Virus record (IMG/VR): IMGVR_UViG_3300005805_000051
Coordinates: 1 to 64,000 of that record
Direction: 5' to 3' (one strand)
DNA: 64,000 nucleotides
Origin: a virus
Shown: piece by piece, positions 11,033 to 33,858 of the stretch
Layout of the letters: each line of letters starts with the position of its first letter
Numbering within the stretch: position 1 is the first letter of the stretch
Made by a program: the position numbers and the translations under genes
Notes under the pieces: model-generated
What the model was told of the DNA's origin: nothing
The model's input: the letters and a program-made list of their open reading frames with translations, nothing else
Database searches by the model: none

Positions 11033-11033
11033 C

Positions 11034-11690
11034 TTAGTATCCTACCAATCCTGCGTTGCGGTCGTAGTATGGTTGTGCGTATCCTGACACCTTGGCGACA
11101 TCCAAAATCAGCGTGTAGTGCGAATCTGCACTCCAGTTCAAGCAGGACAGAATGATGTTGCCGGTCGCGCTGTTTGCGTTATTCGGAATGCGACCAATGT
11201 AATCTTCCAAATCCAGATGCCCGGTGCGGTTCAGCACGGCAATGACGCGATTGTTCGCCCCACCGCTGGTACCTTCCCACTCAAGCTGCACCGCAGCGAT
11301 ACCGGAGTTACCGGACACATTATAGTAAATCTGCTGGACATGAAGCTGTGTGTTGGCCGCACCAATTGCGCCGTTCTGTGTGCGCTCTTTACCGGTCGTG
11401 AACCCGGTCAGGGTATCGTTGTCTGCGAACGTGCCAGAGACATTGATGACAACAACCGATGTGGAGTTGATCACATCCTGCACAATTGCCGATCCTCCGC
11501 TGGTCGCGTTTACCGTCTCACCCACGCGGAAGTTATTCGAGGAGGCATCCGTGGTAATGGTCTGAAGGGTATAAGCGAGCGCACTCGCATTCACGACCAG
11601 CGCACTGGATTCCGTGTTGCCGGAATTGACGCGCTTCGTGATGTGACGGCGGTCGGTGTCCGTAATGGTTTGAACTTGTGTATACGCCAT
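11034..11690 (-). CDS. Putative virion structural protein
   Basis: Lies in the head operon and carries the F.VGET.../GTF...TLTG module also seen in gp7, gp13 and gp14. Confidence 0.7.
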   Translation of the reverse strand: MAYTQVQTITDTDRRHITKRVNSGNTESSALVVNASALAYTLQTITTDASSNNFRVGETVNATSGGSAIVQDVINSTSVVVINVSGTFADNDTLTGFTTGKERTQNGAIGAANTQLHVQQIYYNVSGNSGIAAVQLEWEGTSGGANNRVIAVLNRTGHLDLEDYIGRIPNNANSATGNIILSCLNWSADSHYTLILDVAKVSGYAQPYYDRNAGLVGY

Positions 11691-20950: not shown

Positions 20951-21925
20951 CTATGCCACAAAGAATTCAGGCGGCAACTCGTACTTCGATTGAATCTGCT
21001 CTTCCATTTGTTGTGCTTCGCGGTTCCCCTCGTCGTAAATCGCACGACCGTTGAGCGTGACCCCACCCGGCATCTGCACACCCTCATACTTGATGAGATT
21101 CTGCCCCCATTGCTTTTTCACCAACGCCGTGGAGTAATCGCGCAAGAAACGGTCAGTCCAGACATCCGCATACGTCGCGGGGTCGATAATGCGCTGTGCT
21201 TCGACAATCACATAATCGTTGACACGAATATCGGTTGACCAGTCTAAGTCCAAATACAGTCGATTGACATGTCGATTGTATCGGACATTGACGGTACCAA
21301 TAAACAGGTCATTCAATAGCTCCATGTGCGAACGCGTGAGGTAGTAGGAAATCACACTACTACTAGAAAGCCACGACAGGTCGTTCATCAAGAACTGGTA
21401 GTTCCACGAAAACAACCCCGTGCTGCGGTCGACTGCAAACCCGTCAAGGGGCAGCACTTTGGAAATACTCATCACCAAGTTTGACACCGGCAAATACTGA
21501 TTATCGTAGTCGCCCAATGCAATCGCACTAATCGTCGCCGTCGCGTTACTACCGAGTCCCTTGACCGTTTCCCCCACGCTAAAGGTGTTGGCCGGCACTG
21601 CACTCGAATAAGTGAACTGAAGAAACGTGGCGTTCGCGTTGCTTGTGTACGCTTTTCCGTAGGCGTTACTGGTCAAGCCTTGGAGGCTTTCGCCGTTGGT
21701 AAAGGTACCGGTCGACGCAACCGTAAAGGTCAGATTGGACGGCGTAACCCGATGCTTCAGATAGACCTTTTCCGACCCATCGAAGTGATAGTCTTGAAAG
21801 AACGCCAACGCATCATCAATCCGTTGCTCTAACTGGTCGTCAGAGACATTGACGGTGATCACGGGTTCGCCAAGACGGCGACGGATATAGGTTTTGAGTT
21901 CCGTGCGAGTAGTTGGGAGTGCCAT
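20951..21925 (-). CDS. gp13: Neck protein
   Basis: RRLGEPVI.VNV..DQ and KQWGQNL.KYEGVQMPGGVTLNG motifs. Confidence 0.95.
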   Translation of the reverse strand: MALPTTRTELKTYIRRRLGEPVITVNVSDDQLEQRIDDALAFFQDYHFDGSEKVYLKHRVTPSNLTFTVASTGTFTNGESLQGLTSNAYGKAYTSNANATFLQFTYSSAVPANTFSVGETVKGLGSNATATISAIALGDYDNQYLPVSNLVMSISKVLPLDGFAVDRSTGLFSWNYQFLMNDLSWLSSSSVISYYLTRSHMELLNDLFIGTVNVRYNRHVNRLYLDLDWSTDIRVNDYVIVEAQRIIDPATYADVWTDRFLRDYSTALVKKQWGQNLIKYEGVQMPGGVTLNGRAIYDEGNREAQQMEEQIQSKYELPPEFFVA

Positions 21926-21939
21926 ATCTGGTATTTAGG

Positions 21940-22794
21940 CTACACCGTCGACCATTTATCAGCTCCCACCGGCACCACAATACGACCATTATTTGCCCCA
22001 TCACATTTGATGGTGGCGTTTGCCGTGGTAGTCCCGCTCAACAATACTGTACTGCTGAAAGTCGCGGCCCCTGTGTGAGCAGAAGTAGAGAGCGCACTGA
22101 AGGCCCCACTTACTCCGAGGGTACTTGCTGTATTCATCGCACCCGTAACGGACACAGTATTACTGAGAGTGACCGCCCCGGTGATACCTACATTACTTAA
22201 TGCGTTTACCTGACCCGTAACACTGAGGGTGCTGTTCATGACTACCGCACCGGTCAGGGTGGAGTTCGCCAACGCGGTGAATACTCCAGTCACCCCGAGA
22301 GTACTCAGCGCATTCGCCGCCCCCGCAATACTGGCAGTATTGCTCATCGTGACCGCACCCGTCAACGTGGAGTTTGCGGATGCGGTAAAGACGCCAATGG
22401 CCCCTAATGTGCTAGCGGCGTTTACTGCACCGGTAAAGGTTTTTGCTCCAGCAAAACTTTGCGTCGTGGTATCCACCACACCATTTGCGCTGGTATTTGC
22501 TGACGAGAGTCGTTCAAGCGGTACCGTTCCAGACCCCAACGCGCTTGCATTCAGGGTAGTCAGGGAAACGCCGTTTCCTGAAAATGCTGTTGCGGTAACA
22601 TTCCCGGTTGCGTTCACGGTCGCAACGGTAAATGTTCCATTGAGTGTCGCGTTCGCGGTCGATACCCGAGGGGTCGCGTTCGTCGCTAGCTGTAAATAAG
22701 CTGCGGTGTTATCAACATGACTAGTTAGATTATTGGTTGCATCCAACCACACAAAGAATGTGTCGGTATTTGCAACAAAATTCGGTAATGGCAT
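21940..22794 (-). CDS. Fibre protein with low-complexity beta repeats, at the position T4 uses for wac
   Basis: The N-terminal ~55 aa match those of the 633-aa fibre; repeated NxxSTL.VTG units. The ATG at 22794 has a GAGGAG RBS. Confidence 0.75.
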   Translation of the reverse strand: MPLPNFVANTDTFFVWLDATNNLTSHVDNTAAYLQLATNATPRVSTANATLNGTFTVATVNATGNVTATAFSGNGVSLTTLNASALGSGTVPLERLSSANTSANGVVDTTTQSFAGAKTFTGAVNAASTLGAIGVFTASANSTLTGAVTMSNTASIAGAANALSTLGVTGVFTALANSTLTGAVVMNSTLSVTGQVNALSNVGITGAVTLSNTVSVTGAMNTASTLGVSGAFSALSTSAHTGAATFSSTVLLSGTTTANATIKCDGANNGRIVVPVGADKWSTV

Positions 22795-22881
22795 CTCCAC
22801 TCCTCTTCGGAAACGGGCCGAGTGCGCGAATCCTTCATCCGCGCAGGTCTATGCCATATTTAGGGAAGCATCAATGTCCAC

Positions 22882-23940
22882 CTATGCGGGGGACGAGGTG
22901 CCCGTATTTAACGCTTTCTTTGCGAGTCGTTCCGCTTCCAATTCTTCGTTCGACTTGTGAGTTCCGTCAGGACGCAACATCCCTTCCTTTGCCAACCGAT
23001 CAAAAATATCCTTCATCGAGGTTGCTTGTTGTTCCTTATAAGCCGCGGCCCGTGCATAATTCTTTTCGTATTCTTCTGGCCCATAAGCTTGCTTGCAAAT
23101 AACCTTTGCGCGTTCTACAATACTTTCCCCCCACTCAAAGTAAGAATCAAGGAAATCTTTACCTTCCGGGGTATAACGAACATGCTTGCGGATTTCCACC
23201 AATCCATCCTCAATTTTGGGAATGTTCCCAATCAAATAATGAGAAGCGTTGATCAGATTGCCGGGAAGTTTTGCACACTGAATGTCGTTTTCTCCGAACA
23301 CAATCCACGAATAAATTGCTTGAATGACCGCTGACATCGGACGCTTTTTGTCGCGACGGATCGGTGAATCGTAGAGTTCTTCGCTTGTATTGAGAATTAA
23401 AGAATAGTCGTGGTCATCGATATCCATACCCAGTGCTTCCAGCCGTGCATGACCGACTTCGTGATAAATGCCTTCCGCACACCCTTGCATGCTATTAATG
23501 GTCACATACACCGCGTTGACAAACATGCCTTCTTCTTTGCGGTGGGTCTTAGTCGCACTTTTCATTTCAAAATGACCCGACGAACATCCGTTCGCCCCCT
23601 CCCCCATAATCTTTGACCATTTGGGCCAGAATTCATCGAGAAAAAGTTTGAGCATGAGATGCCCGTCTTCCCATGTCCGTAAGTAGGGGTCAAGATTGGC
23701 GGCAATTTCAGGTGTCCAACGGTCATACCCATCCAACATGGGGTCATCGGGGGGAACCAAGGCTGGGTCAACTAAGGGATCGCGCACAACGGCAACTTCT
23801 CCGTCACAAATCGTAAACTTTGAGGTTGGTTTTCGTTTTGTCCAGCCGTATTTTTGATTCAAAAGATACGCAATTGCGTGGGAATCATAACCGTCAGGTT
23901 GAGGTTTACATACGCGCTTCCAGTCAATTTTCATGATCAC
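22882..23940 (-). CDS. HExxH-motif peptide-modifying enzyme (aKG-HExxH-like beta-hydroxylase)
   Basis: AEGIYHEVGHARL followed by YDSPIRRDKKRPMSAVIQAIYSW, the SP.R...RP signature of RiPP-associated HExxH proteins. Late promoter at 23951-23957. Confidence 0.8.
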   Translation of the reverse strand: MIMKIDWKRVCKPQPDGYDSHAIAYLLNQKYGWTKRKPTSKFTICDGEVAVVRDPLVDPALVPPDDPMLDGYDRWTPEIAANLDPYLRTWEDGHLMLKLFLDEFWPKWSKIMGEGANGCSSGHFEMKSATKTHRKEEGMFVNAVYVTINSMQGCAEGIYHEVGHARLEALGMDIDDHDYSLILNTSEELYDSPIRRDKKRPMSAVIQAIYSWIVFGENDIQCAKLPGNLINASHYLIGNIPKIEDGLVEIRKHVRYTPEGKDFLDSYFEWGESIVERAKVICKQAYGPEEYEKNYARAAAYKEQQATSMKDIFDRLAKEGMLRPDGTHKSNEELEAERLAKKALNTGTSSPA

Positions 23941-23949
23941 TCTCCGTGT

Positions 23950-24546
23950 CTATTTAGTGCGTTCTATTGGAATCTGTGGCCGCTCCGCTTCGGAAATAAA
24001 CGACTGAATACTAACTCGTAACAATCGATTTGTCATCACCGGAGTGGTCATATGAAATTCATTTTTATCATTGTGGATCAGCATACCTTGTGTCGGCACC
24101 AAACTGTCCCATCGACCCGTTGACGCATTATGATATTGGAACAGTCCTCCACAAGTAATATCCCACTCAGGATTTGTGTAGATAGTGACTGTTTTTCGTT
24201 CTGTATCAATGGTTTCATCTTTCCCGTTGTCAAAATGACCGGGAATATACGATCCCTTCGTCCACACATACGCCATGATGCGTCCATGTTTGCCATCATT
24301 TACAAAAGTGGATCGTGAGTTACCCAGCCCCATACGGAAAAGATGCTCATACACTGCGTTGGTCAGTCGTTCATTTAACACCAAGCAAAACACTGGTGTA
24401 CTATCTCTGATGATATCAGAACGCCACGAATAATTTGACCACATAACCACCGGTTCGGTGTGACCGCAGGTCAAGACAATACTGGTCGCCCACCGATAGA
24501 CTTCATTACACAATTCTTTGGGAATAGCCGCAGGATATACAATCAT
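23950..24546 (-). CDS. 2OG-Fe(II) oxygenase (prolyl-4-hydroxylase-like)
   Basis: HFD (HxD), Y.N.EW....GG.F, distal H in FHMTTPV, and R.SIQ.F. Confidence 0.88.
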   Translation of the reverse strand: MIVYPAAIPKELCNEVYRWATSIVLTCGHTEPVVMWSNYSWRSDIIRDSTPVFCLVLNERLTNAVYEHLFRMGLGNSRSTFVNDGKHGRIMAYVWTKGSYIPGHFDNGKDETIDTERKTVTIYTNPEWDITCGGLFQYHNASTGRWDSLVPTQGMLIHNDKNEFHMTTPVMTNRLLRVSIQSFISEAERPQIPIERTK

Positions 24547-24573
24547 AATAATACTAGCTGTTTACTTAATTAA

Positions 24574-25860
24574 TTAAAAACCAGTTTCTGGCTTATCAAT
24601 ATGGGTGATATCGTTGTGTGAATCGACATGCGCGGTGTCAGTGTGCGCGTCTGAGTGGGAATTACTGAAGGCAATATCTGTATGGGCGTCCGAATGGGAA
24701 TTACTGAACGCAATGTCGGTATGAGCATTCGAGTGCGAATTGCTAAATGCAATGTCGGTGTGTGCGTCTGAGTGTGAATTACTAAAGGCGCGGTCAAAAT
24801 GAGCATCCGAGTGGGAGTTATTGAACGCGCGATCAAAATGAGCATTCGAATGTGACGACCCAAACGCGATGTCGTAATGGGCGTTTGAATGCGACGAACT
24901 AAATGCGCGGTCGTAATGAGCATTCGAATGTGAACTGCCAAACGCGATATCATAATGCGCGTTTGAAAACGCTTGGTCGTAATGTAAATAGAAGAATCCG
25001 TCAATATGAAACGGTTGCCACGGACCAGAACCGTAACATATGAATCCATAATTGGGCCCACCCGGCCATGGCACATTAGAGAACCCCGGATAGCCCCACG
25101 GTGCTAAGTTAGTACCATTGTAACAATTATTGTCGGCATATCCATCGAAGTGCGAAGAACTGAATCCAATATCACTGTGCGATGACCCAAACGCGATGTC
25201 GTAATGGGCGTTTGAATGCGACGAACTAAATGCGATATCGTAATGGGCGTTTGAATGCGACGAACTAAATGCGATATCGTAATGGGCGTTTGAATGCGAA
25301 TTACTAAACGATATATCGGTGTGTGCGTTAGAGTGCGACGAACTAAAGGCAATATCTGTATGGGCATTCGAATGTGAACTGCTGAAGGCCCGATCAAAAT
25401 GAGCATCCGAATGGGAGTTACTGAACGCAATATCCGTATGCGCGTCCGAATGGGAGTTACTAAATGCGATGTCCGTATGGGCGTCTGAATGTGAGTTACT
25501 AAACGCAATATCCGTATGAAGGTCTGTATGCGGAGTATCGTTATGCACCCAGAACTCGTTGCCGCTTTCTGCAAGATAATGTAGCTGGCCGGCCGGCGTC
25601 GACGGCGCATAAGATGTTTCTACCCACACCGATCCTGCAAGTCCCGGTGTTGCTCCGATGAACGGCCCGTCGACATAGCGTTCGACGCCAGTGGAATCGA
25701 TGTAATGAATCGTGTTTGACTCAATCCATAAGCTTCCCTGCAACGCGCCGGCCGGAGTGGCGACCGTGGTGCCAAGAAACCGATATTCTGTATTGGATGA
25801 GTTGCGCCAATGTAGGTAGGTTGACTCTACCCACATTGACCCATTGGATTCATTTGCCAT
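24574..25860 (-). CDS. His/Asp/Ser 13-aa repeat protein A (putative virion needle/fibre and modification substrate)
   Basis: Three GS.W.E N-terminal modules, about 17 H(T/Y/F)DIAFSNSHS(D/N)A units split by a unique centre, and a DKPETGF C-terminus. Late promoter 5 nt before the ATG. Confidence 0.85.
   Translation of the reverse strand: MANESNGSMWVESTYLHWRNSSNTEYRFLGTTVATPAGALQGSLWIESNTIHYIDSTGVERYVDGPFIGATPGLAGSVWVETSYAPSTPAGQLHYLAESGNEFWVHNDTPHTDLHTDIAFSNSHSDAHTDIAFSNSHSDAHTDIAFSNSHSDAHFDRAFSSSHSNAHTDIAFSSSHSNAHTDISFSNSHSNAHYDIAFSSSHSNAHYDIAFSSSHSNAHYDIAFGSSHSDIGFSSSHFDGYADNNCYNGTNLAPWGYPGFSNVPWPGGPNYGFICYGSGPWQPFHIDGFFYLHYDQAFSNAHYDIAFGSSHSNAHYDRAFSSSHSNAHYDIAFGSSHSNAHFDRAFNNSHSDAHFDRAFSNSHSDAHTDIAFSNSHSNAHTDIAFSNSHSDAHTDIAFSNSHSDAHTDTAHVDSHNDITHIDKPETGF
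24640..25520 (-). repeat. 39-nt coding tandem repeats in two arms
   Basis: The periodic units differ mostly at synonymous positions; interrupted at about 24980-25150. Confidence 0.9.
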
Positions 25861-25865
25861 ACAAA

Positions 25866-25872
25866 TATTTAG
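25866..25872 (-). promoter_or_regulatory. Late promoter CTAAATA of repeat protein A
   Basis: CTAAATA-TTTGT-ATG, the same 5-nt spacing as at gp3 and gp20. Confidence 0.75.
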
Positions 25873-27246
25873 TTACCGATTCAAACGAATTACTCCGACA
25901 GCTACTCCCTTGGCAGCATCAGTGTGCGTCACGAGCAACTTGTCATTTGGCAGTCCCATCGCTTGTACCCACTCTTCTAGCGATTTCTTTTCCAAATTAT
26001 CCCCATACACGTATACGATGTGTATTGGGCAAGTTTTCAGAGCTTCTAATCCTGCAAATCGGGGTTCTTCGGACATCTCCACGAATCGCACCGGGCAATA
26101 CACCGGTACTGGTGACTCAAACTTTGTTAGTTCATTATACCATCCGAGATTTTCTAGCGCATCCACAACCCACGTTCCTACACCCACCGCTTGTGCGTCC
26201 TTGATGGCGTCTTCGTTCACATCCACCCCGAAGAGGTTCACATCCGGGCGATGCAACTTGATACGACGCAGTAAATGACCATTCCCACATCCTAGATCGA
26301 CCAGCGCGGCGTTTTCAGGAGCAAATTCTTTGACAGTATCAATAATTGGGGAATGCGCTTGACGCATTGCCGCAAAAGAGGCGAAACCATTTTGAAGCCA
26401 AATTTTCTTAGTCGGCTTCACATACCGACCCTTACGTTCAAAGTGTCGTTTTGCCCGAGGCGGAGCCCAATCCGTGCGCGTCGACACCTTGATGCACGGT
26501 CCGACAATTTCCGCAATCCCATTGACTCCGCTCCACTTCGTTGGCCATGATAACACCGTATCAATCGTATGTGCGATTTCGACGTATCCACGGCGCTGCG
26601 CCATCTGACGCATCTGACGCCCGAGTTCGACCGTGTGTTTACACTGATACGAACACGGTAGATGCGACACCCACCGAATCCCCTTCCACCGCCACAGCAT
26701 ATTCGCTTCGACGGGACCGTCTGCAACCCCCGTGGTCGCGAACTGATTCCATGTCGTATCTACCTGACCGGAACCCCATGTATTCAGAAAGAATTGACGG
26801 CAACACTCGGGATAGCCGAGAATCTCTCCGAGCGCCGCATCATTCTTTGCTAAGTTTGATACGGTTGCAATCTTTGCGACCATTTCAGGGCGCGTGATAA
26901 TCACCCGATAATCCCACGGTTGTGATGGATCAAATCCGTCATTTGAACCTGACCGATAAGACGTAGTGCGATTAATCTGCGTAATCGGAACAACAATCAA
27001 TCCATGCGTCGACGCCCACGTAGAGAGTTCCATGAATCTCTCCGGTGACGCCACTTGATAAGTCGCGGGGCGAATCCCATCCACCACAGACCAACGTTCC
27101 AGTTCTTCCCATGACTGGCTCACCTGTTCAAACAACGGCATCCAATAATCACGTTCAGTCAACGATGACCACGCCCAGCGTGTCCACTCTGGCAATACAG
27201 GTCGGTTCGGGTCAAGTTCAGTAGAAATATTGATCGTTTCACTCAT
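25873..27246 (-). CDS. Fusion of a Cys-motif N-terminal domain and a class I SAM-dependent methyltransferase
   Basis: LGYPECC and HLPCSYQC in the N-terminal half; LVDLGCGNG and GVDVNE in the C-terminal half. Confidence 0.8.
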   Translation of the reverse strand: MSETINISTELDPNRPVLPEWTRWAWSSLTERDYWMPLFEQVSQSWEELERWSVVDGIRPATYQVASPERFMELSTWASTHGLIVVPITQINRTTSYRSGSNDGFDPSQPWDYRVIITRPEMVAKIATVSNLAKNDAALGEILGYPECCRQFFLNTWGSGQVDTTWNQFATTGVADGPVEANMLWRWKGIRWVSHLPCSYQCKHTVELGRQMRQMAQRRGYVEIAHTIDTVLSWPTKWSGVNGIAEIVGPCIKVSTRTDWAPPRAKRHFERKGRYVKPTKKIWLQNGFASFAAMRQAHSPIIDTVKEFAPENAALVDLGCGNGHLLRRIKLHRPDVNLFGVDVNEDAIKDAQAVGVGTWVVDALENLGWYNELTKFESPVPVYCPVRFVEMSEEPRFAGLEALKTCPIHIVYVYGDNLEKKSLEEWVQAMGLPNDKLLVTHTDAAKGVAVGVIRLNR

Positions 27247-27254
27247 AATTAATC

Positions 27255-29198
27255 CTATCGTTTTGCGAGATCAGTATGATCGCCGTGTGGAATATCTCCA
27301 TGCCAGTTTCGCGGGGTAATGTTTGATTCTTCTCTTCCGATATCAAAATGATCTCCGTGGGAACGCTCCACAACTTCCACATCTTCATGTGAATCGCCGT
27401 GCGGAATATTCACGGGTGTTTGCAATAACGCAGTATCTGTGTGATCCCCGTGCGGAATATTCTTTGGAGCGTCAAGTAACGCAGCATCGATATGGTCACC
27501 GTGTGGAATATTCTGTATTTGATTCGCAATCATCAAGTCGGTATGATCACCGTGCGGAATATATTCCGTTCTATTCACAATAGCCGAATCTGTATGATCC
27601 CCGTGTGGAATATTTTGCGGCTCATTTAGGAAGGACGCATCCGTATGATCCCCGTGTGGAATATCTTCAGATTTGTCCAGAATAAATGTATCGGTATGAT
27701 CGCCGTGAGGAACTGTTTGGACAGACAAATCGGTGTGATCCCCGTGCGGTATGTGTGGAATACTGGCATCTGTATGGTCAATGTAGTTATCCGCGTGACC
27801 GGGATGCTCTCCCGTTTGCTGGTGTTGCTCCACAGTCATCTGCTCCCGTTGCTGGAGGTCGAATTGCAACATCGCCACATCTGTATGATCCCCATGCACT
27901 CCGTTTCGACGAATCGATTCAGATTGCATGACATTCACTAATTTTGAATATGCCCGATTCCAATTGCCTTGCGATTCATTGGCAATTTGTATTGCATGAG
28001 CGACATCAATTTCTCCCCCGCGCTCCCATGTCGTATACATGATCGTTTCAATGAGCGGCCGCTGCGGGCTTAATGACAGGGGTTCGTCCCCAACGGCGAC
28101 TAATCGACGCTCGACTTCTTCAAACTGCGATTTGAGTGTTGCACAATGCGAGGATTTCAGACGCCAGTCACCGTCCTTCGTATCGAACGGGACTCCCGTA
28201 CCGGGACAATATCCTTGACACATCAACCAGAACCGGCATCCTTTGCACCCACCATCTTCTTCGGGGGTAACATACAATGAAAGCTGCCGTTCATGAAAAC
28301 GATTGGTCTTAAATTGTGTAATCTGCCATTGACTTTCTTGTCCCGACCCCTCAGACGGCAACCAATCTTTCCCGTCTTTGATGCCACGTGTACAGTTTGA
28401 AGGTTCTCCTTCATTTCCAAGTCCTTGCACCGCAGCGGTACTCCACGGGTCGCAGGCTTTCCAAACGCACATGGACGCGGAATCTTTTCCGCGCAAAAGG
28501 TCAATCAATTCTTCAAAATTCAAGAACTTCAAACTTTTGAGTTCTTCGGTCATCTCCCATAGTTCTACCATGACTTTTGTGATTTGCTCATCTGGCAAGT
28601 AGAACTTCTCGGCGTTGTAATCCATTTCCATGAAATGAATGTTGATGAAGCTGACCCCGATACTATCCAGATAGCGAATCCATTCCTTCATCCGCGGCCA
28701 GCGTTCTTCTGACGCGTTGCCCGCATGGAGCGTCACAATCATAGTCGGACCGATGTTACGATCACCGGTTTCTCGGGCGATTCGTGCAATCTCTTCCACC
28801 GCCCATTCACTCTTTGCGGTTGCGTTCCGTGTCGCTTCGAGCGTTCCCGCCCACCGGGAATCGTTGAGTTCACCGGGACCGTCCATACTGATCCCGACTT
28901 GTGTGCGATACTTCTGAAACAGTTCGATGTGCTTTGGGGTGATGAGGGTTGCATTGGTTTGCAGACCCGTGTAGCCCCACTTCTCATATCCGGCCTTCAA
29001 GAGTTCTTCCAACTCTTCAAACCGAATCAGCAACGGTTCACCACCAAATAACTGCCAAAATCCTTGCGACGTTTTAATGGCTTGCATCACTGCTTCGCGA
29101 TTATACTTCGAAACCGGTTGCACATCACGCGCCGCCTGCTCGTAACAGTATTCGCAACGCAAATTGCAAGTTACCCCAACCGGGAGGACTTCAATCAT
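27255..29198 (-). CDS. Radical SAM/SPASM maturase 2 with a long IPHGDHTD-repeat tail
   Basis: CNLRCEYC, FGGEPL, ISMDGP...ND.R and SPASM-type CKGCRFWLMCQGYCP motifs. Confidence 0.93.
   Translation of the reverse strand: MIEVLPVGVTCNLRCEYCYEQAARDVQPVSKYNREAVMQAIKTSQGFWQLFGGEPLLIRFEELEELLKAGYEKWGYTGLQTNATLITPKHIELFQKYRTQVGISMDGPGELNDSRWAGTLEATRNATAKSEWAVEEIARIARETGDRNIGPTMIVTLHAGNASEERWPRMKEWIRYLDSIGVSFINIHFMEMDYNAEKFYLPDEQITKVMVELWEMTEELKSLKFLNFEELIDLLRGKDSASMCVWKACDPWSTAAVQGLGNEGEPSNCTRGIKDGKDWLPSEGSGQESQWQITQFKTNRFHERQLSLYVTPEEDGGCKGCRFWLMCQGYCPGTGVPFDTKDGDWRLKSSHCATLKSQFEEVERRLVAVGDEPLSLSPQRPLIETIMYTTWERGGEIDVAHAIQIANESQGNWNRAYSKLVNVMQSESIRRNGVHGDHTDVAMLQFDLQQREQMTVEQHQQTGEHPGHADNYIDHTDASIPHIPHGDHTDLSVQTVPHGDHTDTFILDKSEDIPHGDHTDASFLNEPQNIPHGDHTDSAIVNRTEYIPHGDHTDLMIANQIQNIPHGDHIDAALLDAPKNIPHGDHTDTALLQTPVNIPHGDSHEDVEVVERSHGDHFDIGREESNITPRNWHGDIPHGDHTDLAKR
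27270..27900 (-). repeat. HGDHxD repeat tail, mostly 17-aa period
   Basis: Ten HGDH(T/I/F)D motifs plus variants in the translation. Confidence 0.9.
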
Positions 29199-29199
29199 G

Positions 29200-30705
29200 T
29201 TAGTTCTCCATCTTCAGGAGCGCATCATCCACATGATCACCATGCGGAATATTTAATATACCCGCATCGGTATGATCGCCATGTTCGTCACCGTGCGGTA
29301 TAATTCCCGAACCAAAATCCTGATGCGACTCGTTATCTGAATGCATCGCATCCGTGTGATCCCGATGTTCATCCCCATGCGGACGGCTTCCTGTCGATGC
29401 AGGAACAAGATGACTCCCGTCATAATGATCGCCGTGACCAAACCCATACTGATCGATATCTTGTTCACGGAGTTGCCCGTTGAAAATCTTAATCGCGGTA
29501 CTCATCTCACACGCACGACCCTGCGTCCACGCGCGATACATGATTGCTTCAATTTCTTTGCGTTGCGGGTGCAACGACATCGGCGTTTCTCCCAACAGCT
29601 TCAGTCGTCGCTCCCCTTCGGTAAACAGTCCCATCCATGTTTGACAGTAGCTTGACCGCAGACGCCAATCCCCGACCCCGCTTTCTTGACTTGCGTCTCC
29701 CTCACCGGGGCACTGCCCTTTACACATCATCCAGAACCGGCAATCCTTGCAACCCCCCTCTTCTTGTGGAGTCACATACAGCGAAAGCTGTCGCTCGTGA
29801 TGACGTTGACCTTCGAAAGTACCGATTTCCCATTTTGCGTGACGACCCGCACCCTCGGCCGGTAGCCAATCAATCCCGTCTTTATTCGTGCGAGAGCAAT
29901 GGGAGGGCGACCCGTCCCCTTCGAGCCCCTGCACGGCGGAAGTATTCCACGGGTCACAGGAGTGCCATGTACACATGACATTCTCATCTTTTGCGCGAAG
30001 CAGTTCAATAATCGCACGGAAGTTGACTACCTTTGCGTTTTTGAACTTGCTGCTCAAATCCCAAAGCTGTAACAGCGCATCCATCAACTCTTCATGCGGG
30101 AGATACCATTCGTTTGCTTGGTAATCCATCTCCATTGTATGAAAGTTGAAATTGAGCATACCTTTTTCATCAAGGTCAATCAACCACTGCTTCAACCGAG
30201 GCAACTTATCTTTTGCAGCATTTCCCGCATGCAATGTAATGATCAGGCTCGGCACCATGTGCTTGTTGTTCACCTTCTTTGCACGTTCCAACAGCAGATC
30301 GATTGCGCGTTCAGACTTCGCGGTTGCCTTGCGCGTGGCTTCTAAGGTACCGGCCCACCGGGAATCGTTGAGTTCGCCGGGCCCGTCCATACTGATACCC
30401 ACATGTGTGTTGTATTTTTCGAAGAGGTCAACATGCCGCTCAGTGATGAGGGTGGCGTTCGTTTGGACGCCGGTGCTGCCAAACTTCTTGTAACCAATGT
30501 CGAGCAGTTCTTCGAGATGATGGAGCGGTAGCAGGAGAGCTTCGCCTCCAAAGAGTGACCACTGCCCGGTGGACTTATCGATCTGGGCAAGAACGGCCTC
30601 GCGGTTATATTTGTGAACCGGCTGCACATCACGCATCGATTGCTCATAGCAATAGGTACAACGCAAATTGCAGGTCACGCCTACAGGTCGAACTTCAATA
30701 CTCAT
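29200..30705 (-). CDS. Radical SAM/SPASM maturase 1 with a short HGD/HTD tail
   Basis: CNLRCTYC, FGGEAL and CKDCRFWMMCKGQCP motifs; tandem paralogue of 27255-29198. Confidence 0.93.
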   Translation of the reverse strand: MSIEVRPVGVTCNLRCTYCYEQSMRDVQPVHKYNREAVLAQIDKSTGQWSLFGGEALLLPLHHLEELLDIGYKKFGSTGVQTNATLITERHVDLFEKYNTHVGISMDGPGELNDSRWAGTLEATRKATAKSERAIDLLLERAKKVNNKHMVPSLIITLHAGNAAKDKLPRLKQWLIDLDEKGMLNFNFHTMEMDYQANEWYLPHEELMDALLQLWDLSSKFKNAKVVNFRAIIELLRAKDENVMCTWHSCDPWNTSAVQGLEGDGSPSHCSRTNKDGIDWLPAEGAGRHAKWEIGTFEGQRHHERQLSLYVTPQEEGGCKDCRFWMMCKGQCPGEGDASQESGVGDWRLRSSYCQTWMGLFTEGERRLKLLGETPMSLHPQRKEIEAIMYRAWTQGRACEMSTAIKIFNGQLREQDIDQYGFGHGDHYDGSHLVPASTGSRPHGDEHRDHTDAMHSDNESHQDFGSGIIPHGDEHGDHTDAGILNIPHGDHVDDALLKMEN

Positions 30706-30727
30706 AACGAAGCCTCACTCACTACTT

Positions 30728-30736
30728 AGTATAGCA
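30728..30736 (-). promoter_or_regulatory. Extended -10 promoter TGCTATACT for the rSAM-rSAM-methyltransferase operon
   Basis: Same motif as before uvsY, followed by a GAGG RBS. Confidence 0.6.
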
Positions 30737-30741
30737 CAGAA

Positions 30742-31938
30742 TTAGAACCCTGTCTCTGGTTTGTCGACATGTGCCACATCGGAGTGCGTATCCGTATGAA
30801 GGTCGGTGTGGGTATCCGTGTGCGCGTTGTTGAATGCGATGTCATAATGCGCGTCAGAATGCGAGTTACTGAAGGCAATATCCGTATGAGCATCCGAATG
30901 CGAGTTACTGAAGGCAATATCCGTATGAGCATCCGAATGTGAGTTACTGAAGGCAATGTCCGTGTGCGCGTCTGAATGCGATGATGCAAACGCGATATCA
31001 TAGTGTGCGTCCGAGTGCGACGACACGAATCCAATATCATAGTGGGCATTTGAGTGCGATGACGCGAATCCAATATCATAGTGGGCATTTGAGTGCGATG
31101 ACCCAAACCCAATATCGTAGTGTTCATCCGTGTGAGAACTGGCAAATGCTTGATATGGCGGCCCATAGTCATTGTAATAATCCGAATGCCCGGGATCGTA
31201 GGGGCCACCACCATTATCAATATATTCATCACCATGACTATTATCAAATGGTATATCATAATGATCGTCAGCATGTGAATTAGAAAATGCGATATCATAG
31301 TGGGCATCCGAATGTGATGACCCAAAGGCGATATCATAATGAGCATTTGAATGTGACGACGCAAACGCAATATCGTAATGAGCATTCGAATGTGACGACC
31401 CAAACGCAATATCGTAATGCGCGTCGGAGTGGGAATTGCTAAACGCACGGTCAAAATGAGCATCCGAGTGCGAGTTGTTAAATGCAATATCCGTGTGGGC
31501 GTTTGAGTGCGAATTACTGAACGCAATATCCGTATGGGCGTCTGAGTGTGAGTTGCTGAACGCGATATCGGTATGCACATCCGAGTGCGTGATCACGGAG
31601 GTGTCAGTGTGCAAGTCCGTGTGTGCGATGTCATCATGGGCATAGCGTTCTGCCCCTGACGCATCAACCCAGTGGAACCCACTGGCATGTGGAGAGGTGC
31701 TATCGGCCCAGATTGACCCTTGCGTTGCTCCTGCGGGTGACGCGACGGTCGGCCCGTAGACATAGCGTTCCGTGCCTGATTCGTCGATGTAGTGGAAGTT
31801 GTTGCTTTCCACCCAGATACTTCCCTTTGTGGCGCCGGCCGGCGTCGCGACCGAGGTACCTAAGAACCGATACTCGGTGTTACTTGCGTTCCGCCAGTGA
31901 AAGTAAGTGCCTTCAACCCAAATAGAGCCGTTCGCCAT
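30742..31938 (-). CDS. His/Asp/Ser 13-aa repeat protein B (paralogue of A)
   Basis: Same GSIWVE modules, about 17 repeats, a different centre and the same DKPETGF end; directly follows the tail fibre gene. Confidence 0.85.
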   Translation of the reverse strand: MANGSIWVEGTYFHWRNASNTEYRFLGTSVATPAGATKGSIWVESNNFHYIDESGTERYVYGPTVASPAGATQGSIWADSTSPHASGFHWVDASGAERYAHDDIAHTDLHTDTSVITHSDVHTDIAFSNSHSDAHTDIAFSNSHSNAHTDIAFNNSHSDAHFDRAFSNSHSDAHYDIAFGSSHSNAHYDIAFASSHSNAHYDIAFGSSHSDAHYDIAFSNSHADDHYDIPFDNSHGDEYIDNGGGPYDPGHSDYYNDYGPPYQAFASSHTDEHYDIGFGSSHSNAHYDIGFASSHSNAHYDIGFVSSHSDAHYDIAFASSHSDAHTDIAFSNSHSDAHTDIAFSNSHSDAHTDIAFSNSHSDAHYDIAFNNAHTDTHTDLHTDTHSDVAHVDKPETGF

Positions 31939-31956: not shown

Positions 31957-33858
31957 CTATGGTTGTAGTGTAGCACGAAGTGCTGCAACTTCCGCAGACA
32001 ATTCTTTGATTGCTGCAACCAGATATGGCACTAATCCTTGATATGCCATGACTTTAGCATCGTTGAGGTCTTCGGATTCAATTGTGTGAACTAATTCGGG
32101 GAAGACCCGTTCTACATCTTGAGCGATAAGGAATGACCGCGTAACATCCGCGTCATCACCCGTGAACCGCCCCATCACCGTGCGAAGAGTCTGTAGTCGT
32201 GAAGTGGCGTTTGAAATTGGCTCAGTTAAAATCTTTGTCCGTTCATCGGACATCGCCGACCAAGCGGTGGCCCCATTAACTAACTGGACACCACCAGAAC
32301 CCCCAACCCCCGGATTTGCATACGCTCGTAGTACTGGAGCGGCCCCTGTACCATAGACATCAATGACCCATGCGTGCGCCTGATCCGAGGCGCGTTCCCA
32401 TCTAATCTCCCCACCTTCGATCGATGTATCTCCGCGACGCAACACAAACCCGGTTGATACACCTTCATACGCGACGGTGGCGGTCGTAGCAGAAGAGGCG
32501 CTTCCCGCACTTCCCGTGATGTTGATGCCCCATGTTCCAGAAGCTCCAGCTCCGCCGGTGGAAGGCGCACCCACCGTGTTGTAACTGATGGTCTTACCCG
32601 CACTTCCATTATAGCTGGTGCCTGATGCCTCACCAGCACCACCATTGTTAAATATGATGGCGTTGGATACTTGAGTTGCTTGCGCCGCGGTCGTCGCACT
32701 AGTGGCGGTCGTGGCGGTTGTGGCACTTCCCGCACTTCCCGTAATATTAATGCCCCAAGTTCCAGAAGCCCCAGTTCCGCCCGTGGAAGGCGCGCCTACC
32801 GTATTATAACTGACCGTGATAGCTCCCGATCCATTATACGTCGTCCCTGACGCGGCTCCACTTCCTCCGTTGTTGAAGGTTACCGCGTTGAGGTTGCTTC
32901 CAAGTGTAACACCTGAAATGGTTGAGGCTGCGAGCTTACTGACAGCAATCGCAGCACTCCCGCTGATGTCTGCGTTAACGATACCTCCCGTCAACGACAA
33001 CTTACTATATGCAATCGCCGCGGAGGCGCTGACGTCTCCATTGACAATCGTACCATCAGCAATCATTGAACTTGTAACTTTTCCTGCCCCAATGGTAGTC
33101 GCTCCAGTACCAGAGATGGTCACATCCCCGGACATAGCAAGAGCTTCAATCCCACCGGTCGCATTCCCTAGTAACAACCGACCGGCGCTAGTGGTCGCCA
33201 GCTTGTCGTGCGACAACGATCCGGCAGCAATCCGTGCGGCGGGCAAAGTACCATTTGAAATATTACTTGCGTTAACCGTCGTAATGTTGATGCCGTTTCC
33301 GGTCAGGAATCCCGCAGCTCCTGCGCTTACATTCGACGTCGCATAGATGTTGACTGCGTTCATGTTACCAGCAGTGGCCGTCACATTCCCTGACGCAGTA
33401 ATGGTGCCAGATGCAGTGATGAACCCCGTGGCGATGACATTCCCGGTCGCGACATTGCCGGTCGCACTGATAGTCGTGGTGTTCAGTGCAGTCGTGTTGA
33501 CATTCTGTGTCGCGGTGATGTTCAACGCACCCGTGATGTTCGCGCTCAGTACCAAGTTGCGCGTCACCGACAAGGAGTTGCTCATCGTCACATCACCGGT
33601 AATCGCCACATTCGCATTAAACGTCGCAATGCCGTTGATGGTCGTATTTCCGTTAACGGACAGTACATTACTGGTCGTCAGATTGACAATCGTTGCAGTC
33701 CCATTCAGACTAACATTGCCAGTTGAAACGCTCGGAGTCGCATTCTGTGCAACCTGCAAATAGACGCTCGTGTTCGCAACATGGCTAATGAGATTATTTG
33801 TCGCATCAAACCATGTATTGAAACTATCGGTCGTCTGAATAATGGAAGGTAACGGCAT
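31957..33858 (-). CDS. Tail fibre with a C-terminal intramolecular chaperone (peptidase S74-like)
   Basis: SDERTK cleavage motif, IAQDVERVFPELV, Y..LVPYLVAAIKEL coiled coil, and an internal ~60-aa duplication. Confidence 0.9.
   Translation of the reverse strand: MPLPSIIQTTDSFNTWFDATNNLISHVANTSVYLQVAQNATPSVSTGNVSLNGTATIVNLTTSNVLSVNGNTTINGIATFNANVAITGDVTMSNSLSVTRNLVLSANITGALNITATQNVNTTALNTTTISATGNVATGNVIATGFITASGTITASGNVTATAGNMNAVNIYATSNVSAGAAGFLTGNGINITTVNASNISNGTLPAARIAAGSLSHDKLATTSAGRLLLGNATGGIEALAMSGDVTISGTGATTIGAGKVTSSMIADGTIVNGDVSASAAIAYSKLSLTGGIVNADISGSAAIAVSKLAASTISGVTLGSNLNAVTFNNGGSGAASGTTYNGSGAITVSYNTVGAPSTGGTGASGTWGINITGSAGSATTATTATSATTAAQATQVSNAIIFNNGGAGEASGTSYNGSAGKTISYNTVGAPSTGGAGASGTWGINITGSAGSASSATTATVAYEGVSTGFVLRRGDTSIEGGEIRWERASDQAHAWVIDVYGTGAAPVLRAYANPGVGGSGGVQLVNGATAWSAMSDERTKILTEPISNATSRLQTLRTVMGRFTGDDADVTRSFLIAQDVERVFPELVHTIESEDLNDAKVMAYQGLVPYLVAAIKELSAEVAALRATLQP

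What the first reader, a model, noticed from the sequence alone, without database searches (positions are those of the whole stretch)
22882..31938. Phage-encoded RiPP-like modification cassette that probably targets His-x-Asp repeat virion proteins
Seen: seven co-oriented genes lie between two fibre genes. In order they are repeat protein B, rSAM/SPASM 1, rSAM/SPASM 2, a methyltransferase fusion, repeat protein A, a 2OG-Fe(II) oxygenase and an HExxH protein. No transporter, leader peptidase or short precursor gene is visible. Established: rSAM/SPASM plus aKG-HExxH enzymes are the toolkit of triceptide RiPPs, making three-residue aromatic-X-X cyclophanes and beta-hydroxylations. His-Xaa-Ser repeat systems also pair two rSAM enzymes with a His-repeat substrate. 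Inference: the substrates here are ~400-aa late proteins with dozens of H-x-D/H-S-N (and F-x-N/S) triplets. The phage may therefore crosslink, hydroxylate and methylate a structural fibre rather than make a small natural product. I know of no described system like this in a phage tail module.
Basis: partly seen in the sequence, partly recalled or inferred. Interest (0 to 1): 0.97.

Follow-up and report, generated by a model that had tools for sequence, protein, structure and literature searches.

The report
Phage fibre-repeat radical-SAM maturation cassette
A T4-like phage carries, inside its tail-fibre gene block, two proteins made of dozens of His/Phe-x-Asp/Asn triplets together with a dedicated enzyme set (two radical SAM enzymes, a DUF483-methyltransferase partner and two oxygenases), which most likely modifies these particle-associated proteins chemically, something not yet shown by experiment for any virus.

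Summary
Seven tightly packed minus-strand genes (22882-31938) lie between two fibre genes. They encode two repeat proteins, two rSAM/SPASM enzymes, a DUF483+methyltransferase fusion, a 2OG oxygenase and an HExxH protein.

New here:
- Both rSAMs end in HGDHTD-type repeats.
- The core trio (aromatic-x-Asp/Asn repeat protein, rSAM, DUF483 with or without MTase) recurs in about 40 phage loci. These include three Thermus phages, and nearly every locus not cut by a contig end has all three parts.
- The repeats also occur inside a true J-type tail fibre.
- His can be replaced by Phe in the repeats, which argues against pure metal binding.
- A complex prediction and a natural rSAM-DUF483-MTase fusion tie the enzymes together.
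- DUF483-PqqD fusions point to a peptide or protein substrate.

The enzymes belong to no curated maturase family; the nearest solved structure is anSME. The most likely function is enzymatic modification of fibre-associated repeat proteins, probably His/Phe-to-Asp/Asn Cβ rings, then hydroxylation and methylation. The chemistry and the virion location are untested.

A 2024 paper noted the trio as an 'rSAM module' of unknown function. This scan has reported it at least 8 times on other DNA. This window holds the most elaborate version seen here.

The parts
30742..31938 (-). Repeat protein B (398 aa). The N-terminal ~105 aa form a domain of three GSxW[VI]E...Y[IV]D..G..R units (31624-31938). About 25 copies of the 13-aa unit AHTDIAFSNSHSD follow, interrupted by a Gly/Pro/Tyr-rich centre. 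The conserved end is H-V-D-K-P-E-T-G-F.
   Evidence: (61 aromatic-x-D/N against 18 in shuffles).
29200..30705 (-). rSAM/SPASM enzyme 1 (501 aa). CX3CX2C at residue 12 and CX2CX5CX3C at residue 319. The C-terminal tail (about 29203-29448) holds 5 HGD motifs.
27255..29198 (-). rSAM/SPASM enzyme 2 (647 aa, 55% identical to enzyme 1). The long C-terminal tail (about 27258-27902) holds 12 HGD motifs, mostly IPHGDHTD, with a 51-bp DNA period.
25873..27246 (-). DUF483 domain (residues ~14-283; invariant C148, C149, C198, C202, E50, D163, R186, R191) fused to a class-I SAM methyltransferase (residues ~290-457; motif VDLGCGNG).
   Evidence: Predicted to dock on the SPASM region of the rSAM. Natural fusions.
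24574..25860 (-). Repeat protein A (428 aa). Same architecture as B: N-domain at 25546-25860, 13-aa repeats, a Pro/Gly/aromatic centre and the same C-terminal motif.
   Evidence: (58 aromatic-x-D/N against 17 in shuffles).
23950..24546 (-). 2OG-Fe(II) oxygenase (198 aa) with H104-x-D106, H165 and R177. It is an accessory gene, seen only in this window among the loci examined.
   Evidence: (PF13640, 26.0 bits against 27).
22882..23940 (-). HExxH protein (352 aa), a distant relative of the aKG-HExxH peptide beta-hydroxylases. It is an accessory gene, also present in L003/L004 (two fetches of one contig each, also held as L069/L067), L005, L065, L066 and L068.
   Evidence: TIGR04267, 29.6 bits against 40; fused rSAM-HExxH structure 22nu, E 0.017.
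31957..33858 (-). Upstream tail-fibre gene (633 aa) with a C-terminal S74 intramolecular chaperone.
21940..22800 (-). Downstream fibre-like gene (286 aa). It shares its N-terminus with the 633-aa fibre and ends in PVGADKW. The same end motif closes the fibre that precedes the repeat protein in L003 and the J-type fibre in L005. In L012 and L065 it is fused directly in front of the repeat protein's N-domain.

Best explanation
This is a phage-encoded protein-maturation cassette for fibre-associated repeat proteins.

Enzymes. The rSAM/SPASM enzymes work as a unit with the DUF483-methyltransferase protein; DUF483 docks on a family-specific insert of the SPASM domain.

Substrates. They act on the many aromatic-x-Asp/Asn triplets (HxD, HxN, FxN, YxD) of the two repeat proteins. 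No leader peptide is needed, because the motif itself is repeated dozens of times.

Most likely chemistry, by analogy with triceptide synthases and anSME (inferred, not shown):
1. A 5'-deoxyadenosyl radical abstracts the Cβ hydrogen of the Asp/Asn.
2. That carbon bonds to the ring of the His/Phe/Tyr two residues upstream. This gives one small cyclophane per triplet and a loss of 2 Da each.
3. The two rSAM paralogues may divide the His-x-Asp and Phe-x-Asn motif classes between them.
4. The aKG-HExxH-like protein and the 2OG oxygenase then add hydroxyl groups, and the methyltransferase adds methyl groups.

Product. The result would be a rigid, heavily cross-linked segment of a tail or neck fibre.

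Status of the steps. Shown here: gene content, motif statistics, conservation of the trio, repeats inside true fibre proteins, domain fusions. Supported by a model only: the rSAM-DUF483 complex. Inferred: the substrate assignment. Speculative: the exact chemistry, the division of labour and the benefit to the phage.
For: 1. Linkage. Forty loci hold a relative of this rSAM: IMG/VR contigs, three Thermus phages and one Limnochordales MAG. In every locus with enough flanking sequence except L063, there is an aromatic-x-D/N repeat protein and a DUF483 gene beside it or within a few kb. Among 50,697 phage records, the three that hold the repeat protein are the same three with a full-length rSAM match; a fourth record has only a 28% partial rSAM match and no repeat-protein match.

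2. Motif.
- 1411 His in 36 distinct repeat proteins; 91% have D/N at +2.
- The motif is enriched 3- to 4-fold over shuffles in all 42 proteins.
- In L058 the same protein family carries 39 Phe-x-Asn/Asp and only 6 HxD.
- The window's own unit contains a conserved F-S-N.
- So the constant feature is aromatic-x-D/N, the triceptide motif form (PMC11499958). A His metal ligand would not explain this.

3. Enzyme type. The CX3CX2C motif and the full SPASM cysteine pattern are invariant. The best curated matches are peptide and protein maturases (AmcB, anSME, DynA). The best solved relative is anSME over its full length (E 1.7e-20), followed by the ChlB rSAM domain. There is no N-terminal RRE, as in anSME, which also acts on whole proteins.

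4. Enzyme unit.
- Complex prediction of rSAM 1-405 with DUF483 scored 0.89; the best of 3 controls scored 0.18.
- That mark was reached by 58 of 80 solved complexes and by 2 of 110 mismatched pairs. These counts hold only roughly, because my own alignments were used.
- The runs agree in at least 96% of contacts, and the partner's pLDDT is at least 88.
- The interface uses rSAM residues that are invariant in this family: W280, P282, E284, G285, G287, R305, Q306, L309, Y310, T312, P313.
- A natural 914-aa protein fuses rSAM (40% identical to the window's, E 2e-91), DUF483 and MTase.

5. Peptide link. Other DUF483 proteins are fused to PqqD, the RiPP recognition element.

6. Fibre link.
- An HxD block lies inside a Phage-tail_3 / central-fibre-J protein in L005.
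- HxD blocks lie at the C-terminus of LamG proteins of 1052-1077 aa that match a PHROG annotated virion structural protein.
- Fibre N-termini are fused to the repeat protein in L012 and L065.
- The cassette sits between neck and baseplate genes here and in L042, L066 and L068.

7. Accessory chemistry. The characterised aKG-HExxH domain ChlH hydroxylates His and Asp of a peptide after cyclophane formation (PMC12636437, citing Morishita 2024).

8. Paralogues. All five two-rSAM loci have repeats that mix HxD with 7-26 FxN/D. Single-rSAM loci have 0-5, except L058.
Against: - No experiment exists. No mass shift, no virion proteomics and no expression timing have been measured.
- The rSAMs are far below every curated cyclophane-synthase cut-off. 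Their closest solved relative, anSME, does an oxidation, not a cross-link.
- The DUF483 fold matches no solved structure convincingly, so its role is unknown.
- The HGD-repeat tails of the rSAMs (110 of 120 close homologues) are unexplained, and they fit a metal-binding idea as well.
- L063 has rSAM + DUF483-MTase in a non-tail context with no separate repeat protein within the fetched flanks.
- The two-rSAM loci form one clade, so that correlation may be a single event.
- The complex prediction is a model's confidence, not a measurement.
- The conserved N-domain plus variable repeats plus conserved C-terminus of the small repeat proteins also fits a leader/core/follower precursor.
Confidence: 0.62

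Rival explanations
1. Same substrates and enzymes, but different radical chemistry. Candidates are anSME-like dehydrogenation of a side chain, epimerisation, a His-Asp bond other than ring-C to Cβ, or a carbon insertion such as the +8 Da change of HxsA. The fibre would still be modified, but not by three-residue cyclophanes.
For: - The nearest solved structure is anSME over its full length.
- All cyclophane-synthase models score far below their cut-offs.
- The only characterised His-x-Ser repeat protein system gives a +8 Da (+C, -4H) change, not -2 Da (PMC13128918).
Against: - The invariant feature is aromatic-x-D/N with fixed spacing, including Phe-for-His replacement. This fits ring-to-Cβ linkage better than oxidation of one residue.
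- The sulfatase motif C/S-x-P-x-R is absent.
- An aKG-HExxH partner is known to act after cyclophane formation (PMC12636437).
Confidence: 0.2
2. The His-x-Asp repeats are metal-binding ladders of a trimeric fibre, like the His-x-His iron sites of the T4 gp37 needle (from my own knowledge). The His-rich enzyme tails also bind metal. The enzymes would serve assembly or another target, and the repeats would not be covalently modified.
For: - His and Asp are classic metal ligands.
- 86% of all His are followed by Asp at +2.
- The rSAM tails are His/Asp-rich.
- The context is fibre genes.
Against: - Phe-x-Asn replaces His-x-Asp almost completely in L058, and partly in the window's own repeat unit. 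Phe and Asn are poor ligands.
- It gives no reason for the near-obligate adjacency of an rSAM/SPASM enzyme and DUF483.
- It gives no reason for the DUF483-PqqD fusions.
- Metal binding and cross-linking are not mutually exclusive.
Confidence: 0.1
3. The small repeat proteins are multi-core RiPP precursors. The conserved ~105-aa N-domain would be the leader, the repeats the cores, and the conserved H-x-D-Q/K-P end the follower. Host or unknown proteases would cut them into many small cyclophane peptides with a role in infection, so they would not be virion parts.
For: - The small repeat proteins have a conserved N-domain, hypervariable repeats and a conserved C-terminal motif.
- The repeat number is highly variable.
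- RiPP-type enzymes and DUF483-PqqD fusions are present.
Against: - No protease or exporter lies in any of the loci inspected.
- The same repeats occur without the N-domain inside J-type fibres and in 640-1186-aa proteins, some of which carry tail or virion-structural domains.
- Fibre N-termini are fused to the N-domain in L012 and L065.
- The location is always in tail or neck modules.
Confidence: 0.07
4. The rSAM and DUF483-methyltransferase modify DNA or nucleotides, as suggested for the Thermus phage 'rSAM module'. The repeat proteins would then be unrelated neighbours.
For: PMC11437467 reports homologues next to deazapurine DNA-modification genes in some cyanobacteria. L063 lies in a non-structural context.
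Against: - The enzyme is a SPASM-type rSAM whose best matches are peptide and protein maturases.
- It is adjacent to repeat proteins in nearly all loci.
- The enzyme's own tail carries the same motif.
- DUF483 is fused to PqqD peptide-binding domains.
- The MTase's nearest solved relatives include plantazolicin and protein methyltransferases.
Confidence: 0.03

Closest known systems
Phage 'rSAM module' of Thermus phages Cumys and phiMa (Cumys_13/12/11; Viruses 2024, PMC11437467)
   Same: Homologous trio in the same order, next to baseplate and collar-fibre genes. The rSAM is 42% identical. The DUF483 protein is present. The 'unknown' protein Cumys_13 has the same three-unit N-domain followed by 54 HxD triplets.
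   Different: The paper did not note the HxD repeats or a link to the fibre, and proposed DNA modification. The window's version is larger: two rSAMs with long HGDHTD tails, two repeat proteins with a mixed HxD/FxN 13-aa unit, an MTase fused to DUF483, and added HExxH and 2OG oxygenases. It sits in a T4-like myovirus.
Triceptide (three-residue cyclophane) synthases: XyeB/XncB, GrrM/OscB, YhhB, HaaB, HtkB, ChlB, AmcB
   Same: They are rSAM/SPASM enzymes whose substrates are defined by aromatic-X-X motifs, often several per peptide. His-containing rings are known (HAA, HNR, HTK: His-C2 to Cβ). HtkB accepts Phe in place of His (PMC11499958). ChlB is paired with an aKG-HExxH hydroxylase that acts on His and Asp (PMC12636437).
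   Different: The window's rSAMs score 31-69 bits against these models, whose cut-offs are 310-450. They have no RRE or leader logic. The substrates are 170-1186-aa fibre-type proteins with up to about 100 motifs. DUF483 is an obligate partner. The chemistry is untested.
HXS antiphage system (HxsA His-x-Ser repeat effector matured by rSAMs HxsB/HxsC with HxsD; Nat Commun 2026, PMC13128918)
   Same: Two rSAM enzymes and a small partner protein (an HxsC-HxsD complex) mature a protein, not a short peptide, that carries His-x-small repeats.
   Different: HXS is bacterial and defensive. HxsA has five basic HxS repeats, a peptidoglycan-binding domain and N-terminal processing. Here the system is phage-borne, the repeats are acidic (HxD) and number in the dozens, the context is fibre genes, and no Hxs model is matched.
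Anaerobic sulfatase-maturating enzyme (anSME, PDB 4K36)
   Same: It is the closest solved structure, aligned over the full length (E 1.7e-20). It lacks an RRE, acts on a whole folded-size protein and abstracts a Cβ hydrogen.
   Different: The score is 68 bits against a cut-off of 349. There is no sulfatase and no C/S-x-P-x-R motif. This family has its own SPASM insert, predicted to bind DUF483.

Membership tests
Triceptide / cyclophane-forming rSAM-SPASM maturases | Radical SAM CX3CX2C cluster motif | tested here: met
   CNLRCTYC at residue 12 (rSAM 1) and CNLRCEYC at residue 11 (rSAM 2). PF04055 scores 48.9 and 50.1 bits against a cut-off of 29.5.
Triceptide / cyclophane-forming rSAM-SPASM maturases | SPASM auxiliary-cluster cysteine pattern (CX9-15GX4C ... 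CX2CX5CX3C ... C) | tested here: met
   C250...G265-x4-C270, then C319-x2-C322-x5-C328-x3-C332, then C354. All are invariant in 23 homologues. Pfam's own SPASM model was not among the hits.
Triceptide / cyclophane-forming rSAM-SPASM maturases | Score above the curated cut-off of a cyclophane-synthase model | tested here: not met
   AmcB 68.8 against 425; GrrM/OscB 45.6 against 310; YhhB 50.9 against 445; XyeB 39.3 against 450; FxsB 33.0 against 370.
Triceptide / cyclophane-forming rSAM-SPASM maturases | Substrate with aromatic-X-X (Omega1-X2-X3) motifs encoded beside the enzyme | tested here: met
   58 and 61 aromatic-x-D/N triplets in the two adjacent proteins, against 17-18 in shuffles. The same holds in all 42 repeat proteins of related loci.
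Triceptide / cyclophane-forming rSAM-SPASM maturases | Short leader-core precursor peptide, usually with an RRE/PqqD-type recognition element | tested here: not met
   The substrates are 398 and 428 aa, and up to 1186 aa elsewhere. No PqqD hit in any window protein. PqqD is fused to DUF483 only in distant family members.
Triceptide / cyclophane-forming rSAM-SPASM maturases | Aromatic ring to Cβ cross-link (-2 Da per motif) | not testable with these tools
   Needs co-expression, MS/MS and NMR.
HXS system (HxsABCD) | HxsA-type His-x-Ser repeat effector; HxsB, HxsC and HxsD equivalogs | tested here: not met
   NCBIfam gave no family for either repeat protein. No Hxs model is among the 25 best rSAM hits, all of which are far below their cut-offs. 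The motif is HxD/FxN, not a basic HxS.
aKG-HExxH peptide beta-hydroxylases (TIGR04267 / IPR026337) | HExxH iron-binding motif and family-level sequence match | tested here: inconclusive
   HEVGH at residue 160 is invariant in 5 homologues. TIGR04267 scores 29.6 bits, below its cut-off of 40. The profile hits the C-terminal domain of a solved fused rSAM protein (22nu) at E 0.017, including the P-x-R-x-D-x2-R-P stretch.
2OG-Fe(II) oxygenase superfamily (PF13640) | HxD...H facial triad, basic residue for 2OG, and a score above the cut-off | tested here: inconclusive
   26.0 bits against a cut-off of 27. H104-F-D106, H165 and R177 are present. Precomputed Pfam assigns PF13640 to its four close homologues.
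Anaerobic sulfatase-maturating enzymes | Equivalog-level score and a sulfatase substrate with C/S-x-P-x-R | tested here: not met
   TIGR03942 scores 68.0 against a cut-off of 349. The motif is absent from both repeat proteins.
Phage rSAM module (Cumys/phiMa type) | Homologous rSAM + DUF483 protein + third (HxD repeat) protein as neighbours in a phage | tested here: met
   tblastn and jackhmmer matches of all three parts to Cumys, phiMa and phiLo and to about 36 IMG/VR loci.

The most novel reading that the evidence does not exclude
Phages of several unrelated types (T4-like, lambda-like, Thermus, jumbo) staple a segment of a tail or neck fibre with dozens of enzyme-made His/Phe-to-Asp/Asn Cβ rings, then add hydroxyl and methyl groups. 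The enzyme unit would be a new rSAM-DUF483-methyltransferase holoenzyme. This would be the first RiPP-type modification of a virus particle protein. It would also be the first triceptide-like enzyme family that works on large proteins without a leader. In this window, two paralogous rSAMs would each serve one motif class.
Probability: 0.4. Interest if true: 0.9.

Novelty: new variant of a known kind. Interest (0 to 1): 0.8.

Why it matters
If the reading is right, three things follow.

- Radical SAM peptide chemistry, known so far from small natural products and a few cellular proteins, would also be used to build virus particles. That opens a new class of virion modification that could affect fibre stiffness, stability or receptor binding.
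- It would give a function to DUF483. Its phage-type branch has about 1,000 cluster representatives at E <= 1e-30.
- It would explain a gene trio already noted in Thermus phages.

The trio occurs in cultivable Thermus phages, so the idea can be tested directly.

This window adds the richest enzyme set seen here. It also adds a natural contrast (HxD plus FxN motifs with two rSAM paralogues) that can be used to map enzyme specificity.

Tried and rejected
- **Megablast** of the cassette against 50,697 phage records: no match.
The contexts of the 691 metagenomic rSAM homologues could therefore not be read, and the survey rests on IMG/VR loci.
- **Genome-contig scan:** it returned one locus only, because the search patterns were narrow. 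The spread in cellular genomes was not measured.
- **N-domain scan:** the broad N-domain alignment was too divergent to scan with. A narrower one found only truncated relatives.
- **DUF483 fold:** Foldseek's best match has E 0.13. VIA-align's best is Z 6.6 (rmsd 3.8, 104 aligned) to 2guk, a protein of unknown function, and Z 3.8 to the cysteine methyltransferase NleE. There is no usable fold assignment.
- **Whole-protein fold search:** it returned only methyltransferases.
- **Protein atlas:** the DUF483 domain fell in unnamed, mostly viral clusters. The N-domain scored under 0.9, which is a lead only.
- **Low-complexity Pfam/PHROG hits:** the matches of the repeat proteins to Lysostaphin_N, DUF6150 and phrog_15366 are low-complexity matches with no accepted stretch, so I did not use them.
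- **Promoters and terminators:** sigma-70-like and terminator-like sites are no more frequent than in shuffles. The T4 late motif TATAAATA is absent from the cassette. Nothing can be said on timing.
- **Conserved insert genes in related loci** (L003 361 aa; L006, L009, L055 and L058 180-245 aa): no family was found.
- **Repeat-protein fold:** not predicted, because both fold jobs went to DUF483.

Full report
**What is there**

The window is the first 64 kb of a 109-kb IMG/VR virus record. Its portal is 46% identical to that of T4-like Synechococcus myoviruses. Its sheath, terminase, neck and baseplate-wedge genes match T4-type PHROGs.

Seven minus-strand genes lie between the gp13-like neck gene with a short fibre-like gene (20951-22800) and a 633-aa fibre with an S74 chaperone end (31957-33858). 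They are separated by only 1 to 36 nt. In order of transcription they are:

1. Repeat protein B.
2. rSAM/SPASM 1.
3. rSAM/SPASM 2.
4. DUF483 + methyltransferase.
5. Repeat protein A.
6. A 2OG-Fe(II) oxygenase.
7. An HExxH protein.

**The repeat proteins**

Both begin with a ~105-aa domain of three GSxW[VI]E...Y[IV]D..G..R units. About 25 copies of a 13-aa unit (AHTDIAFSNSHSD) follow, seen as a 39-bp DNA period. Both end in a conserved H-x-D-K-P motif.

Each unit holds three aromatic-x-D/N triplets (HTD, FSN, HSD). There are 58 and 61 such triplets per protein, against 17-18 expected from composition. In the whole 109-kb record, HxD-dense stretches occur only in these two proteins and in the C-terminal tails of the two rSAMs.

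**The enzymes**

- *The two rSAMs.* They are 55% identical. Each has the CX3CX2C motif and a complete SPASM cysteine pattern.
  - Their best curated matches are peptide or protein maturases (AmcB, anSME, DynA, DarW, PapB, GrrM/OscB). All score 31-69 bits against cut-offs of 300-650, so this is a separate subfamily.
  - The nearest solved structure is anSME over its full length (E 1.7e-20), followed by the ChlB rSAM domain.
  - The catalytic motif starts at residue 11-12, so there is no N-terminal RRE.
  - Both enzymes end in HGDHxD repeats (5 and 12 HGD). 110 of the 120 closest homologues have such tails, with up to 32 HxD motifs.
- *The third enzyme.* It joins a DUF483 domain to a class-I methyltransferase.
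  - The DUF483 domain has four invariant Cys plus invariant E, D and two R.
  - The methyltransferase's nearest solved relatives include the plantazolicin and protein methyltransferases.
  - The model of the fusion is confident (pLDDT 92), but DUF483 matches no solved fold convincingly.
- *The HExxH protein.* It is a distant relative of aKG-HExxH beta-hydroxylases: 29.6 bits against a cut-off of 40, and a profile hit to a solved fused rSAM-HExxH protein at E 0.017.
- *The 2OG oxygenase.* It scores just under the Pfam cut-off, but it has the HxD...H triad and the Arg.

**Is the association more than chance?**

Among 50,697 phage genomes, only three (Thermus phages Cumys, phiMa and phiLo) hold a full-length relative of the rSAM (a fourth has only a 28% partial match), and the same three hold the repeat protein.

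In Cumys the order is collar-fibre gene, hypothetical gene, Cumys_13, rSAM, DUF483 protein. Cumys_13 has the same N-domain followed by 54 HxD triplets, and its rSAM has an HGD tail.

Two scans of IMG/VR and one of GTDB genomes gave 37 further loci. A jackhmmer and motif census found the repeat protein, the rSAM and DUF483 (mostly fused to the MTase) together wherever the contig was not cut. The exceptions are:
- phiLo, where the HxD proteins lie about 4 kb away;
- L063, which lacks a separate repeat protein and lies in a non-tail context.

A reverse scan with the N-domain found only truncated relatives with the same layout.

**Which feature of the repeat matters?**

In 36 distinct repeat proteins, 91% of 1411 His have D/N at +2. 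Phe is followed mainly by Asn.

In L058 the same protein family, with the same N-domain, carries 39 Phe-x-Asn/Asp and only 6 HxD. The constant feature is therefore aromatic-x-Asp/Asn, not histidine.

This is the Omega1-X2-X3 form of triceptide substrates. For those, His-C2 to Cβ rings are known, and Phe is accepted in place of His (PMC11499958). It argues against a pure metal-ligand role.

All five loci with two rSAM paralogues, including this window, have repeats that mix HxD with 7-26 FxN/D. Single-rSAM loci have 0-5, apart from L058. That suggests one paralogue per motif class, but the five loci form one clade.

**Are the substrates particle proteins?**

- In L005 an HxD block of about 125 aa lies inside a 1186-aa protein with Phage-tail_3 and central-fibre-J matches.
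- In L052 and L064 the repeats end LamG-bearing proteins of 1052-1077 aa that match a PHROG annotated virion structural protein. In L050, L062 and L011 they end 640-734-aa proteins with no family match.
- In L012 and L065 a fibre N-terminus (MAWT...PVGxDK) is fused in front of the N-domain.
- The PVGxDKW or PVGTNxW end closes the window's 286-aa fibre-like protein and the fibres next to the cassette in L003, L005 and L042.

This is good indirect evidence for a fibre-associated role. There are no proteomics.

**Do the enzymes form a unit, and is the target a peptide or protein?**

A complex prediction of rSAM 1 (residues 1-405) with the DUF483 domain gave a score of 0.89, against 0.18 for the best of three controls.
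- That mark was reached by 58 of 80 solved complexes and by 2 of 110 mismatched pairs. These counts hold only roughly, because my own alignments were used.
- The runs agree in at least 96% of contacts, and the partner's pLDDT is at least 88.
- The interface uses the family-invariant insert of the SPASM domain (W280, P282, E284, G285, G287, R305-P313).

A profile search of 1.84 billion representatives found 984 DUF483 relatives at E <= 1e-30. They include:
- a 914-aa natural fusion of rSAM (40% identical to the window's), DUF483 and MTase;
- fusions of DUF483 with PqqD, the peptide-binding element of RiPP pathways.

Both kinds of fusion support a single enzyme unit that acts on a peptide or protein. 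They speak against the DNA-modification idea of PMC11437467.

**Most likely mechanism, and what is inferred**

The rSAM-DUF483-MTase unit binds the repeats directly. A 5'-deoxyadenosyl radical abstracts the Cβ hydrogen of Asp/Asn. That carbon then bonds to the ring of the aromatic residue two positions upstream.

The HExxH and 2OG enzymes then hydroxylate. ChlH, the characterised relative, hydroxylates His and Asp after ring formation (PMC12636437). The MTase methylates.

Only the gene-level facts are shown here. The complex is model-supported, the substrate assignment is inferred, and the chemistry is an analogy. The HGD tails of the enzymes remain unexplained. They could be pseudo-substrates, tethers to the repeat array or metal sites.

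**Comparison with known systems**

- *Closest relative.* The Thermus phage 'rSAM module'. It was described in 2024 without a function and without mention of the repeats.
- *Closest by mechanism.* The triceptide synthases. Membership fails on score and on the leader-peptide logic.
- *Closest by concept.* The bacterial HXS defence system, in which two rSAMs and a small partner mature a His-x-Ser repeat protein with a +8 Da change (PMC13128918). It is not homologous at family level and has the opposite biological role.
- *Closest solved structure.* anSME.

**Status within the scan**

Earlier notes of this scan describe the same trio on at least eight other genomes, with the same reading. I consulted them after forming my own reading. 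They are unchecked AI notes and are not independent evidence.

What this window adds is the most elaborate set seen here: two rSAMs, two repeat proteins, a mixed HxD/FxN unit, and both an HExxH and a 2OG oxygenase, all in a T4-like genome.

**Verdict**

I put about 0.6 on enzymatic modification of fibre-associated repeat proteins and about 0.4 on the specific cyclophane reading. I class it as a new variant of a known kind (rSAM/SPASM protein maturation), of high interest, and testable in cultivable Thermus phages.

Noticed in passing
window 27258-27902 and 29203-29448: The two rSAM enzymes end in repeats of the substrate-like motif (I)PHGDHTD: 12 and 5 HGD, with a 51-bp DNA period in rSAM 2. 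110 of the 120 closest homologues have such tails. The clade with gene order repeat protein, DUF483-MT, unknown gene, rSAM mostly lacks them (L008-L010, L053-L059; L006/L007 keep one HGDHFD). Their role is unexplained.
   Followed up: partly
window 21940-22800 and 31957-33858; L003 13888-15048; L042 10645-12000; L005 2596-6156: The fibre proteins around the cassette share an N-terminus (MPLPS..T..F..W...TN.....V) and, except the window's 633-aa fibre (which ends in an S74 chaperone), a C-terminal PVG(A/T)(D/N)(K/L)W end. In L012 and L065 a fibre N-terminus ending in this motif is fused directly to the repeat protein's N-domain. This hints that the motif and the N-domain are docking partners.
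   Followed up: partly
L063 (IMGVR_UViG_3300031548_000260) 8001-11167: This is the only complete locus where rSAM (with three HGD in its tail) and DUF483-MTase have no separate repeat protein within the fetched flanks. The neighbours look like regulatory, HNH-type and lysis-type genes (read by eye, no family search), not tail genes.
   Followed up: partly
L006 3370-3999; L009 4453-5085; L055 7478-8017; L058 5463-6200: A conserved protein of 180-245 aa with no family lies between DUF483-MTase and the rSAM in one clade of the system. It may be a fourth component.
   Followed up: partly
L003 12764-13849; L041 12407-13624: A conserved protein of 361-405 aa with no family follows DUF483-MTase in the window's closest relatives. 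It is absent from the window, where the 2OG oxygenase is the extra gene instead.
   Followed up: partly
window 30756-30728 (minus strand): A sigma-70-like site (GAGACA, 17 nt spacer, TATACT, with an upstream TG) lies just before the rSAM 1 start. Such sites are no more frequent in the region than in shuffles, and the T4 late motif TATAAATA is absent from the cassette.
   Followed up: partly
window 34153-40779: A 2208-aa protein of unknown function (phrog_358, 1120 bits) lies between the fibre genes and the baseplate wedge genes. L070 has the same order: giant protein, fibre, repeat protein.
   Followed up: no
window 30726-31580, 24570-25076 and 25104-25610: Long alternative-frame ORFs (284, 168 and 168 aa) lie inside the repeat genes. 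They are by-products of the 39-bp periodicity, not genes.
   Followed up: no
P0150, P0257 (metagenomic proteins): DUF483 domains fused to PqqD (RRE) domains. In some lineages the family therefore seems to use leader-type peptide recognition.
   Followed up: partly
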